38,683 bases of DNA from an uncultured archaeon. Lineage in GTDB: Archaea; Asgardarchaeota; Lokiarchaeia; Sigyniarchaeales; SOKP01. Numbering within the stretch: the first letter of the stretch is position 1; each line of letters starts with the position of its first letter. Shown one piece after another: positions 32,873 to 35,199 of this stretch. The position numbers were made by a program, and so were the translations under genes. Below the pieces are notes generated by a model. It saw nothing but the letters and a program-made list of their open reading frames with translations, was not told the DNA's origin and searched no databases. Where the stretch lies: positions 1 through 38,683 of the forward strand of contig CAZOYD010000031.1 in assembly GCA_964583985.1 (NCBI GenBank). The letters are read 5' to 3'.

Positions 32873-33754
32873 ATGCCATTGAAGGGTGTTGAGTCATTTC
32901 AGGCCAAGGTGCCAGCACTTTCGGGAAAAAGATTTTTAATCTTACCTTTTTATTCTATCATTATGATAACAATAGGAATTGTCTGGATGAGATTCATATT
33001 TGAGATTTCCAGAAACATGAAAGCAGTTACTGATATTTGGATAATCTCCTTGATACCATTGCTTGGTTATCTTCTTCTCGAATTCCTAGGTTTTCTCCTT
33101 GCCAGCCAGATGTGGTTCTGGCGTAATTTTTTAAAGAAGCGTTATGGTATGAATTCTTTTCATCGAATTATTTTTGTAGGTTTAGCAGGAATTTTATTGG
33201 TATTTTCACTAAGTATAAATCTCTACCAACCATTTTTCCTAGATCTTTTCTCTGGATGGTTAGGTTCACCATTGGCTTTTTTGATGATACTTCTTGATTC
33301 ATTGTCAGGAATTGGGGCTCCTATAGCCTATGTTCTCAAGATCGTGATCGGAATCGGTTTCTTGTTAGGGGGATTTGCGATGGCATTGCGATCTGTAACA
33401 ATTTTAGGATTAGATTACTTGTCCACTCTTTATCTTTACTTTCCCGAGGAAAGTAAAGTGCAAAAAAACGAAATTTATTCCGCCTTGCGAAATCCATTTT
33501 ATGCTGCTTTTTTAATGATTGGGTGGGGTGGGGCGATCTTAACATGCACTTTATATACATTCATCATGTTCATTTTTTACCTCATCGGTTTTTATATCTT
33601 CTTATGCTTTGTCGAGGAACGGGAGTTACTTCAACGTTTTGGGGATATTTTTGCCTCCTATCAAAAAACAACACTCATGTTTTTCGTTAAGCCGAGCAAC
33701 CTCAAAGTTTTATTGAAGTTTATTTTTATTAAAAAAAAAATTATTAAAGAGTAA
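32873..33754 (+). CDS. ICMT/PEMT-family integral membrane methyltransferase
   Basis: Multi-TM; 'IYSALRNPFY' and 'VEERELLQRFG...Y' motifs. Confidence 0.8.
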   Translation: MPLKGVESFQAKVPALSGKRFLILPFYSIIMITIGIVWMRFIFEISRNMKAVTDIWIISLIPLLGYLLLEFLGFLLASQMWFWRNFLKKRYGMNSFHRIIFVGLAGILLVFSLSINLYQPFFLDLFSGWLGSPLAFLMILLDSLSGIGAPIAYVLKIVIGIGFLLGGFAMALRSVTILGLDYLSTLYLYFPEESKVQKNEIYSALRNPFYAAFLMIGWGGAILTCTLYTFIMFIFYLIGFYIFLCFVEERELLQRFGDIFASYQKTTLMFFVKPSNLKVLLKFIFIKKKIIKE

Positions 33755-33936: not shown

Positions 33937-35199
33937 TTAATACTTGAACCCTTTTAACATCTGGACTGTAGTCAACGTATCTTTACCATCTTTTCTTAAG
34001 TAATCCATTGCTTCTTCTATCCCTTCCACAGTAAGGTGAAACATCGGGATGATGCTTGAAATGATTTTTCTAGTCCAAGGCACCCATTCTAATCGAATAA
34101 TTTCAGGGTTCAACCACACCACGTTATTCTTGAAATGGTTCGCAAGCTCGCGGATGTAATAGACTCCAGGCATTTCGTTGCGATGATAATAATAAATGCT
34201 TCCATAACGTTCGGTGAGCTCCCAGCTTGCCCTCACAATTTAATCGGAATTCGATTAAATAATTGCGGCGTCGCCCACCACGACAACTTTGTATTTGCTG
34301 TTATATTTTTTCAGAAAATCCTCAAATGGAGTGGCTTCTTCTGGGTTTCTCTGTGCATTATGATAAAGTGTCTCGTATAAGCAATTATGGAAGTAGTAAA
34401 ACTTAAAGTCCTTCCAGTGTGACATGTTGCTTGCTGCTGAAAAAAGTAAATTTACTAAATGTGCATAAGGTGTCATGGTACCACCGACGTCCATTAGTAA
34501 TATTAGTTTTACGTTATTCTTTCTTTTCTTTTCAAAAACGAGATCGATATCTCCACCGTTCTTGGCGGTCAAATCTATGGTCTTATCAATGTTTAGTTCA
34601 TTTTGTTTCCCGATTTCTTCGAGTTTTTTGAGGCGTTTTAGGGCAACCTTGATTTGGCGGGTGTCTAAGACGATATCTTTTCTATAATCGGCAAAGATCC
34701 TTTTTTGGGCAATTTGTATTGCCATTCGCATTCCGGCAGATCCTCCAAGTCTCATGCCCATTGGGTTTTGGCCAGCATTTCCAAATCGAGATTCACCTTG
34801 AGTTCCAATCCAATGATGACCGCCATCATGGTCTTCATCTTGTTTTTTCATTAACTCTTCTAATTGTTTTTGGAGATCCTCAAGGTCGAAGATTTCACTC
34901 ATAAATTGTTGAAGATTATCGGGTAATTCTTTTGGGTCAATTTTCTTATCGAGCCAATCCCATATTTGTTGTTTAATCTCGTCGGGAAATTTTAGTGACG
35001 CGTCTTTAAAGAAATTGGCAAATGCGATATCGTAAATGTCAAAGTGATGCTCGTTCTTGCATAAAAGAGATCGAGAAATGTAATAAAATTCGACTATATT
35101 GTGTATTAATCCTTTATCCAATGCTTCGATTAGAGCCATGTATTCTGTTAAAGAGACGGGTAATCGATCCTTTAAATAATAAAAGTAATCTACAAACAT
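33937..35199 (-). CDS. VWA domain protein (COG3825/CoxE-like), interrupted by a 30-nt insert; 410 aa if the insert is removed
   Basis: ORFs 34255-35199 and 33937-34236 are in the same frame. Motifs 'HDGGHHWIGTQGESRFG', 'LMDVGGTM', 'YYFHNCLYE', 'VGDAA' in the first part continue as 'SWEL...VWLNP...PMFHLTVEGIEEAM' in the second. Confidence 0.85.
34232..34261 (-). other. Candidate 30-nt bulge-helix-bulge (BHB) mRNA intron
   Basis: Sense strand GC-CGCA-[AU|U]-AUUUAAUCG-AAUUC-CGAUUAAAU-UGUG-[AG|G]-GC: 9-bp stem, 4-bp central helix, two 3-nt bulges. Excision gives GCC GCA ATG GCA AGC TGG. Confidence 0.65.

What the first reader, a model, noticed from the sequence alone, without database searches (positions are those of the whole stretch)
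34225..34275. Candidate bulge-helix-bulge intron in a protein-coding (VWA) gene
Seen in sequence: the minus strand reads ...GGC GAC GCC GCA AT[TATTTAATCGAATTCCGATTAAATTGTGAG]G GCA AGC TGG GAG. The bracketed 30 nt (34261-34232) are AT-rich in a GC-richer context, contain two in-frame TAA codons, and form a perfect 9-bp stem (ATTTAATCG/CGATTAAAT, 5-nt loop). With the flanks this folds as a BHB: central helix CGCA/UGUG (one G-U), bulges AUU and AGG on opposite strands, closing GC/GC pairs. Established: archaeal EndA splicing endonuclease cuts after the second nucleotide of each 3-nt bulge. Applied here, the rule removes exactly 30 nt, keeps the frame and creates ATG, giving GDAAMASWEL, which fits the GDAxMxPxE motif I recall for COG3825 VWA proteins. 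Sliding the junction by one base gives Arg or Ile, so only the BHB-predicted cut restores Met. Both halves of the gene look intact. The best-known archaeal mRNA introns are in crenarchaeal cbf5. Inference: this may be tRNA-type mRNA splicing in an Asgard archaeon that gene callers would report as a split gene. Caveats: the outer helix is short, the bulges do not end in the usual A, and an alternative register (GCC/GGC, GCAA/UUGU, bulges UUA/GAG) would remove 28 nt and shift the frame.
Basis: partly seen in the sequence, partly recalled or inferred. Interest (0 to 1): 0.93.

Follow-up and report, generated by a model that had tools for sequence, protein, structure and literature searches.

The report
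tRNA-type mini-intron in Asgard VWA gene
A 30-base hairpin insert that breaks a VWA-domain protein gene of an Asgard (Promethearchaeota) archaeon has the RNA shape that tRNA-splicing enzymes cut. Twenty related versions keep that shape through compensating mutations, so the mRNA is very probably spliced, which the papers I searched confirm for only one archaeal protein gene (cbf5).

Summary
On the minus strand, a CoxE-type VWA gene (35199..33937) carries a 30-nt insert (34261..34232) with two in-frame TAA codons.

- **Contiguous orthologues:** all read GDAAMASWELTE and are 410 or 474 aa. Removing the 30 nt gives a 410-aa product.
- **Same insert elsewhere:** I found 20 distinct orthologous inserts at the identical AT|..|G site, 29, 30, 31 or 33 nt long, so reading through cannot rescue all of them.
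- **Shared fold:** all fold as a 4-bp central helix with two 3-nt bulges and an inner hairpin. The central helix pairs in 97.5% of cells, and synonymous third positions of the two Ala codons covary with intron bases.
- **Cut sites:** cutting after the second nucleotide of each bulge restores ATG in every variant.
- **Exon 2:** it is intact in 24 of 24 intron-bearing loci, with pN/pS about 0.12. In 11 of 20 variants it has no start codon of its own.
- **Host enzymes:** the genome encodes two EndA paralogues, one without the catalytic Tyr and His, which fits the (alpha-beta)2 type, plus RtcB.

Weak points: there is no RNA evidence, the window's outer helix has only 2 bp, and the BHB is not the minimum-energy fold.

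This scan has already reported the same VWA intron family on other DNA (e1-5589688) and many similar mini-introns, some in this genome. I found no paper reporting them in Asgard archaea.

The parts
34262..35199 (-). Exon 1 of the VWA_CoxE gene: 312 codons plus the AU of the split Met codon
   Evidence: ORF and translation. Pfam VWA_CoxE, E 1.3e-06. 89% identical to the first 313 residues of the contiguous 410-aa orthologue P0004.
34232..34261 (-). The 30-nt BHB mini-intron, phase 2, inside the Met codon
   Evidence: Absent from 75 of 80 species-level orthologues, which read ATG here. Homologous inserts of 29-33 nt occur at the same site in 20 distinct sequences.
33937..34231 (-). Exon 2: the G of the Met codon, 97 codons and the stop
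   Evidence: Intact 97 codons in 24 of 24 intron-bearing loci, median pN/pS 0.12. Begins with the family's invariant ASWELTERYGSIYYYHRNE block.
34264..34267 (-). Central helix, 5' strand (CGCA): the third base of the first Ala codon plus the second Ala codon
   Evidence: Pairs with 34237-34234. Helix 17-20/51-54 of A2 is paired in 97.5% of cells, with compensatory changes at both end pairs.
34261..34263 (-). 5' bulge AUU; predicted cut between 34262 and 34261
   Evidence: Unpaired in the BHB model. Cutting after the second bulge nucleotide follows the rule stated for cbf5 (PMC2738675) and restores ATG in all 20 variants.
34238..34260 (-). Inner hairpin h': a 9-bp stem (34260-34252 with 34246-34238) and the loop AAUUC
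   Evidence: Perfect stem. The helices are paired in 93-97% of cells, and 7 of 9 pairs show changes on both sides.
34234..34237 (-). Central helix, 3' strand (UGUG), intronic
   Evidence: Covaries with the synonymous exon positions.
34231..34233 (-). 3' bulge AGG; predicted cut between 34232 and 34231
   Evidence: Same geometry in all 20 variants. The bulge sequence varies (AGG, AAG, UUG, CAG, UAG) except for the coding G.
34229..34230 (-). Outer helix, 3' strand (GC), pairing with GC at 34269-34268
   Evidence: These two pairs are invariant. A third pair forms in 13 of 20 sequences and five pairs in 5 of 20. The window copy has only 2 bp.
34255..34257 (-). First in-frame stop (TAA), two codons after the 5' splice site
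   Evidence: A stop occupies this codon in 19 of 20 variants. Unspliced mRNA would give a 314-aa truncated product.
34240..34242 (-). Second in-frame TAA inside the intron

Best explanation
The 30 nt at 34261..34232 (minus strand) are a bulge-helix-bulge (tRNA-type) mini-intron inside the coding sequence of a CoxE-type VWA gene.

In the pre-mRNA, four exon bases (CGCA, partly Ala codon wobble positions) pair with four intron bases (UGUG). This forms the 4-bp central helix. It is flanked by two 3-nt bulges on opposite strands, a 9-bp intron hairpin on the inside and a short exon-exon helix on the outside.

The host's two-subunit splicing endonuclease (EndA) would cut after the second nucleotide of each bulge, and RtcB would join the exons. 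That recreates the AUG codon and a 410-aa protein reading GDAAMASWEL.

Shown here: the insert, its conserved position, the covarying BHB fold, purifying selection on both exons, and the presence of the enzymes. Inferred: that cutting and ligation actually occur in the cell, and that EndA and RtcB are the enzymes responsible.
For: 1. Contiguous orthologues are 410 or 474 aa with an invariant Met at the junction. The spliced window product is exactly 410 aa.
2. Twenty distinct inserts sit at the identical AT|..|G site. They are 29, 30, 31 or 33 nt long, so the two exons are in different frames in some lineages and only exact excision restores the protein.
3. Covariation supports the BHB. 86% of cells are paired against 32-42% in slid controls. 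The central helix is 97.5% paired, with pair types CG/UA/AU and AU/UG/UA/GC at its ends, which involve synonymous codon positions. 65 cells carry compensatory changes against 8 or fewer in the controls. The competing 28-nt register has no covariation.
4. Exon 2 is intact in 24 of 24 intron-bearing loci, with pN about 0.10, pS about 0.82 and median pN/pS 0.12.
5. In 11 of 20 variants no in-frame start codon precedes exon 2. In two of them a TAG abuts it.
6. The closest intron-less relatives are 90-93% identical at the nucleotide level and read exactly ATG at the site.
7. The host has one catalytic-type EndA, whose best solved-structure match is the Aeropyrum pernix chain 3p1z_B. It has a second paralogue with Phe in place of the catalytic Tyr and no His in that segment. 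It also has RtcB.
8. 13 of the 22 tRNAs found by aragorn carry introns.
9. The same genome's only RNase HII gene and its Rpo1N gene carry similar 30- and 31-nt inserts. The Rpo1N insert shifts the frame of an essential gene.
10. The hairpin is unique in the genome, so it is not a repeat element.
Against: - No transcript evidence was found. No full-length protein more than 92% identical to any truncated form appeared among the 120 database clusters listed.
- In the window copy the outer helix has only 2 bp.
- The BHB fold (-10.3 kcal/mol) is less stable in silico than a symmetric internal-loop fold (-16.6 kcal/mol). The minimum-energy fold contains all four central pairs in only 4 of 20 variants.
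- One variant (L136) has no stop in its 30-nt insert, so it could be translated as a 10-residue insertion.
- My own genome-wide BHB plus ORF-joining scan gave no excess over slid controls: 131 hits against 109-136. It therefore adds no independent support.
Confidence: 0.87

Rival explanations
1. The gene is dead, or on the way to being lost. A small palindromic insertion disrupted it and the two halves merely look intact.
For: There are two in-frame stops, and gene callers report a 314-aa fragment. A degraded N-terminal fragment of the same gene family lies on another contig of the genome (C69:260-472).
Against: - The insert is kept at the same site in 20 diverged sequences spread across the tree.
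- Exon 2 is intact in 24 of 24 loci, with pN/pS 0.12 while synonymous sites are saturated.
- The stems change by compensatory mutation.
- This is the only full-length copy of this orthologue in a genome estimated 100% complete.
Confidence: 0.04
2. The gene is truly split, and exon 2 is translated as a separate 97-aa polypeptide that assembles with the 314-aa N-terminal part.
For: In the window a GTG (34236) lies two codons before exon 2. Nine of 20 variants have some in-frame GTG or TTG in the insert.
Against: - 11 of 20 variants have no start codon between the last in-frame stop and exon 2.
- In L113 and L165 a TAG directly abuts exon 2.
- The next ATG lies 19 codons inside the family's most conserved block.
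- This model does not explain the covarying central helix and bulges.
Confidence: 0.03
3. Ribosomes bypass the insert (hopping, as in phage T4 gene 60), taking off at the Ala codon before the insert and landing on the Ala codon after it.
For: A stable hairpin with a stop codon lies close to the take-off site. In the window both flanking codons are GCA.
Against: - The flanking Ala codons are identical in only 5 of 20 variants (read).
- The product would lack the invariant Met-Ala.
- Hopping does not require the covarying 4-bp helix with two 3-nt bulges.
- The Rpo1N insert in the same genome has no matched codons.
Confidence: 0.02
4. The insert is an assembly or sequencing artefact, or the stops are read through under another genetic code.
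For: None beyond the fact that the sequence comes from a metagenome-assembled genome.
Against: - The insert appears in at least 20 independent assemblies from JGI, ENA, NCBI and Logan.
- Inserts of 29 and 31 nt shift the frame, so no recoding of stops can restore the protein.
Confidence: 0.01

Closest known systems
BHB intron in the cbf5 (pseudouridine synthase) pre-mRNA of Crenarchaeota (Watanabe 2002; Yoshinari 2006; Yokobori 2009, PMC2738675)
   Same: - A short intron inside an archaeal coding sequence.
- It splits a codon in a highly conserved motif.
- The predicted cuts fall between the second and third bulge residues.
- The BHB is often relaxed, and the host has a hetero-oligomeric EndA.
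- The distribution is patchy, with lineage-specific loss (compared).
   Different: - The gene differs (CoxE-type VWA, not cbf5) and so does the phylum (Asgard/Promethearchaeota).
- Here the intron is only 29-33 nt.
- cbf5 splicing was confirmed by cDNA and by in vitro cleavage; this one has no RNA evidence yet.
- In this genome it appears to be one of several such inserts.
Archaeal pre-tRNA introns with the canonical hBHBh' motif, cut by EndA and joined by RtcB
   Same: - The geometry is identical: the outer helix runs straight into a 4-bp central helix on the 5' strand, and the 3-nt bulges lie on opposite strands.
- The cut falls after the second bulge nucleotide.
- The same enzymes are present in the genome.
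   Different: - The substrate is an mRNA with no tRNA body.
- One strand of the central and outer helices is coding sequence, so structure and codon choice constrain each other.
HAC1/XBP1 unconventional mRNA splicing in eukaryotes (IRE1 cleavage, ligation by tRNA ligase/RtcB)
   Same: - A short intron is removed from an mRNA by a protein endonuclease that recognises stem-loops, and the exons are joined by the tRNA ligase.
- Removal changes the C-terminus of the protein (general knowledge; review PMC13149111).
   Different: - The nuclease and RNA motif differ: IRE1 recognises twin stem-loops, not a BHB.
- Nothing here shows that this intron's removal is regulated.
BHB-type intron in a 5' UTR of Haloferax volcanii (Schwarz et al. 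2020, PMC7714728)
   Same: EndA acts on an mRNA outside tRNA and rRNA. The paper appears in the list, but I took this point from an earlier scan note and did not read the paper.
   Different: It lies in an untranslated region, not in the reading frame, so it does not decide what protein is made.

Membership tests
Archaeal BHB (EndA-type) intron | [quoted passage not shown] | tested here: met
   In the window: CGCA/UGUG with bulges AUU and AGG. Across 20 variants the central helix is 97.5% paired, with compensatory changes at both end pairs. The alternative register is not supported.
Archaeal BHB (EndA-type) intron | Flanking helices h (outer) and h' (inner) | tested here: inconclusive
   The inner helix has 9 bp and is well supported by covariation. 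The outer helix has 2 invariant bp in the window, 3 bp in 13 of 20 sequences and 5 bp in 5 of 20. The window copy is therefore a relaxed form, which published work links to (alpha-beta)2 or epsilon2 EndA (PMC5829648 abstract).
Archaeal BHB (EndA-type) intron | Cutting after the second nucleotide of each bulge gives the correct mature sequence | tested here: met
   The rule is as stated in PMC2738675. Applied to all 20 variants (29-33 nt), it recreates ATG and the invariant AAMAS junction.
Archaeal BHB (EndA-type) intron | The host encodes a splicing endonuclease and an RtcB ligase | tested here: met
   Two EndA paralogues (207 and 205 aa, 28% identical, the second without the catalytic Tyr and His) and one RtcB.
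Archaeal BHB (EndA-type) intron | The intron is actually excised from the RNA (spliced cDNA junction, free or circular intron) | not testable with these tools
   No transcript data were reachable. No near-identical full-length protein was found for any truncated form among the listed clusters.
cbf5 pre-mRNA intron family | Located in cbf5 at the catalytic Asp codon, in Desulfurococcales/Sulfolobales | tested here: not met
   The host gene is a VWA_CoxE protein of Promethearchaeota. It is the same kind of intron but not the same intron.
Translational bypass (T4 gene 60 type) | Matched take-off and landing codons flanking the gap | tested here: not met
   The flanking Ala codons are identical in only 5 of 20 variants, and the product would lack the invariant Met-Ala.
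Miniature repeat element (MITE-like palindrome) | Multiple copies in the genome | tested here: not met
   The 23-nt hairpin occurs only once in the 3.8-Mb genome at up to 3 mismatches.
Pseudogene | Relaxed selection and accumulating disruptions downstream of the break | tested here: not met
   Exon 2 is intact in 24 of 24 loci, with pN/pS 0.12.

The most novel reading that the evidence does not exclude
The intron acts as a switch rather than a passive passenger. A stop codon two codons past the 5' splice site is kept in 19 of 20 variants, so unspliced mRNA gives a defined 314-aa protein that lacks the last third of the VWA fold, while spliced mRNA gives the full 410-aa protein. EndA/RtcB activity would then set the ratio of the two. 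That would make it an archaeal counterpart of HAC1/XBP1-type regulated splicing, in the closest prokaryotic relatives of eukaryotes, and part of a genome-wide set of spliced mRNAs.
Probability: 0.1. Interest if true: 0.88.

Novelty: new member of a known kind. Interest (0 to 1): 0.74.

Why it matters
- **Published state:** endonuclease-type splicing of an archaeal coding sequence has been confirmed for one gene family only, cbf5 in Crenarchaeota. The 2009 paper says so explicitly (PMC2738675). A 2025 structural paper still cites only the cbf5 work in the reference-list passage I read.
- **What this adds:** a well-supported case in Asgard archaea, in a genome where essential genes such as Rpo1N carry similar inserts. 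It would mean the closest archaeal relatives of eukaryotes routinely interrupt protein genes and depend on mRNA splicing by the tRNA machinery. That bears on how intron-exon gene structure and RtcB-dependent mRNA splicing arose.
- **Practical consequence:** gene callers report such genes as truncated or split. At least 13 of the 120 listed protein clusters are cut at this site, which distorts Asgard proteomes and metabolic reconstructions.
- **A ready test:** this intron shows wobble positions of two Ala codons covarying with intron bases, which gives a clean model substrate for an in vitro cleavage assay.

Tried and rejected
1. **Genome-wide BHB scan.** I scanned G000 for a 4-bp central helix, at least 2 outer pairs and an inner stem, requiring that removal joins two open frames. 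The strict version gave 85 hits, mostly long and implausible. The relaxed version gave 131 hits against 109-136 in controls with slid partners. There is no usable signal in this AT-rich genome. The scan recovered the VWA intron but missed the Rpo1N insert, which has no outer helix. I dropped it.
2. **Thermodynamic folding alone.** The local z-score is only -1.56 and the BHB is not the minimum-energy fold. Energy models do not decide the question; covariation does.
3. **Spliced transcripts in the protein collection.** The best full-length match to any truncated form is 81-92% identical, so there is no evidence either way.
4. **Rfam.** No family matches the region.
5. **Stops in distant paralogues.** The '1 TAA' flags in G024 and G031 turned out to be the genes' own terminal stops, not introns.
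6. **Rejected readings:** a repeat-element origin, read-through or recoding, and bypass (see the rival explanations).

Full report
**Observation**

The minus strand between 35199 and 33937 encodes a CoxE-type VWA protein (Pfam VWA_CoxE). Its frame is interrupted by two in-frame TAA codons (34257-34255 and 34242-34240). Both halves lie in the same frame. Exon 1 ends with AT (34263-34262). A 30-nt AT-rich segment follows (34261..34232) with a perfect 9-bp stem and a 5-nt loop. The reading frame then resumes with G GCA AGC TGG GAG. Short perfect hairpins are common in this AT-rich window (54 inverted repeats of 9 nt or more), and the local fold is not exceptional (z = -1.56). The case therefore rests on comparison with relatives, not on the hairpin itself.

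**What orthologues show**

A protein search with exon 1 found hundreds of Asgard (Promethearchaeota) orthologues of 410 or 474 aa. It also found a minority of 314 or 376-380 aa, and these all end at ...GDAAI plus one residue. Contiguous forms all read GDAAMASWELTE, with the Met invariant. Removing the 30 nt from the window gene gives exactly 410 aa.

I fetched DNA for the truncated forms. I also scanned one genome per species and metagenome contigs. This gave 20 distinct inserts, all at the same AT|...|G position and 29, 30, 31 or 33 nt long. Because 29 and 31 are not multiples of three, the two exons are in different frames in those lineages. No read-through or recoding can rescue them, only exact removal.

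**Structure**

The 20 junctions align well (A2). I counted pairs for the BHB model, which consists of:
- an outer helix (columns 12-16 with 58-62);
- a 4-bp central helix (17-20 with 51-54);
- 3-nt bulges (21-23 and 55-57);
- an inner hairpin.

Results:
- 86% of cells pair, against 32-42% when the partners are slid.
- 65 cells carry changes on both sides, against 8 or fewer in the slid controls.
- The central helix is paired in 97.5% of cells.
- Its end pairs are CG 9 / UA 8 / AU 3 and AU 8 / UG 7 / UA 4 / GC 1.
- The 5' partners of those two pairs are the third positions of the two Ala codons, so synonymous sites covary with intron bases.
- The inner stem changes sequence completely between intron types while keeping its pairing.

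It differs only in pairs 17-57 and 21-50, which show no covariation and fail in 3 and 7 of 20 sequences. The symmetric internal-loop fold that RNAfold prefers needs A21 to pair with column 53, and that column is C in half the sequences (derived).

The geometry matches a tRNA BHB. Cutting after the second nucleotide of each bulge is the rule stated for cbf5 in PMC2738675. It restores ATG in all 20 variants.

There are three weak points. The outer helix has only two invariant pairs, and only those two form in the window; 5-7 bp form in L005, L032 and L071. The BHB is not the minimum-energy fold for the window (-10.3 against -16.6 kcal/mol). The minimum-energy fold holds all four central pairs in only 4 of 20 variants.

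**Is the gene alive?**

Exon 2 is an intact 97 codons in all 24 intron-bearing loci that reach the stop. Between lineages the synonymous sites are saturated (pS about 0.82) while pN is about 0.10, giving a median pN/pS of 0.12.

In 11 of 20 variants there is no in-frame ATG, GTG or TTG between the last stop and exon 2. In two of them a TAG abuts exon 2. Exon 2 opens with the most conserved block of the family, so it cannot be translated on its own in those lineages.

This is the only full-length copy of this orthologue in a genome estimated 100% complete. Other VWA_CoxE genes in the genome are distant paralogues.

**History**

On a tree of 85 full-length proteins the intron needs at least 9 gains or losses (quick tree). 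The introns are visibly homologous to each other, so one old intron with repeated exact losses is the simplest reading, though it is not proven. The closest intron-less partners are 90-93% identical in nucleotide sequence and read ATG at the site. In the window's own genus, 3 genomes carry the intron (G000, G018, G004) and 12 do not.

**Machinery**

G000 encodes RtcB and two EndA paralogues of 207 and 205 aa, 28% identical.
- The first is closest to solved crenarchaeal EndA chains (Aeropyrum pernix 3p1z_B and 3ajv_B, Sulfolobus tokodaii 2cv8_A).
- The second has Phe where the first has the catalytic-type Tyr, and no His in the corresponding segment.

This fits the (alpha-beta)2 architecture. 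Published work links that architecture to relaxed BHB substrates and to cbf5 splicing (PMC5829648 abstract; PMC2738675). A 2026 preprint reports two paralogues in 44 of 60 Asgard genomes. Aragorn finds introns in 13 of the 22 tRNAs it detects.

**Other inserts in the same genome**

I followed two unchecked notes from this scan and confirmed both inserts.
- The only RNase HII gene has a 30-nt insert with a TAA inside its DEAGRGP motif.
- Rpo1N is split by 31 nt into two frames. It has a GGAC/GUCU central helix and AU|U and AA|A bulges but no outer helix.

A frame-shifting insert in an RNA polymerase subunit makes it hard to avoid the conclusion that this organism removes such inserts.

**Rivals**

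- Pseudogene: contradicted by the selection on exon 2 and the conservation of the insert.
- Split gene: contradicted by the missing start codons.
- Ribosomal bypass: the flanking Ala codons match in only 5 of 20 variants and the product would lack Met-Ala.
- Artefact or recoding: the insert appears in many independent assemblies, and 29- and 31-nt inserts shift the frame.
- Repeat element: the hairpin is unique in the genome.

**Novelty**

My full-text searches found confirmed splicing of an archaeal coding sequence for cbf5 only, and no paper on Asgard mRNA introns. The Asgard tRNA-intron preprint does not use the word mRNA and mentions protein-coding genes only as neighbours used to match tRNA loci.

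Within this scan the phenomenon has been reported many times. That includes the same VWA intron family in another genome (e1-5589688) and several genes of this genome. Two earlier reports claim RNA evidence for other genes; I did not check those.

I therefore class this as a new member of a known kind. The mechanism is known. The lineage and the gene are new, and so, it appears, is how widespread such introns are in this genome.

Noticed in passing
window 34247-34251 and 34255-34257 (A2 columns 27-29 and 35-38): Some intron positions are conserved beyond what the pairing requires. A stop codon sits two codons after the 5' splice site in 19 of 20 variants (TAA in 18, TGA in 1). The loop and closing bases read UUCC almost invariantly. 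This may be shared ancestry, or selection for quick termination on unspliced mRNA.
   Followed up: partly
L136:2399-2471 (metagenome contig Ga0114921_10051265): One variant of the intron has no stop codon and is 30 nt long. Gene callers would annotate it as a 10-residue insertion in the GDAAM motif rather than as a split gene.
   Followed up: partly
G000:C2:24757-24787 (L173/L174): The RNA polymerase subunit Rpo1N gene of the same genome is split by 31 nt into two frames. The fold is BHB-like (GGAC/GUCU central helix, bulges AU|U and AA|A) but has no outer helix.
   Followed up: partly
G000:C1:127200-127829 (L172): The only RNase HII gene of the genome carries a 30-nt insert with an in-frame TAA inside the DEAGRGP catalytic motif.
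   Followed up: partly
G000:C69:260-472: A degraded fragment lies on another contig. It is 72% identical to residues 1-72 of the VWA protein and carries three stops.
   Followed up: no
L012 (DATKTW010000077.1): A contig labelled 'Candidatus Nanopelagicaceae bacterium' carries a typical Asgard copy of this VWA gene, 93% nucleotide identity to L100. It is probably a mis-binned contig.
   Followed up: no
G000, whole genome: Aragorn finds only 22 tRNA genes in a genome estimated 100% complete, and 13 of them have introns. Many tRNA genes are probably missed because of multiple or non-canonical introns.
   Followed up: no
window 33434-33458: A perfect 11-bp hairpin with a 3-nt loop lies inside the neighbouring plus-strand membrane-protein ORF (32873-33754). 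It is in frame and has no stop, and I did not examine it further.
   Followed up: no
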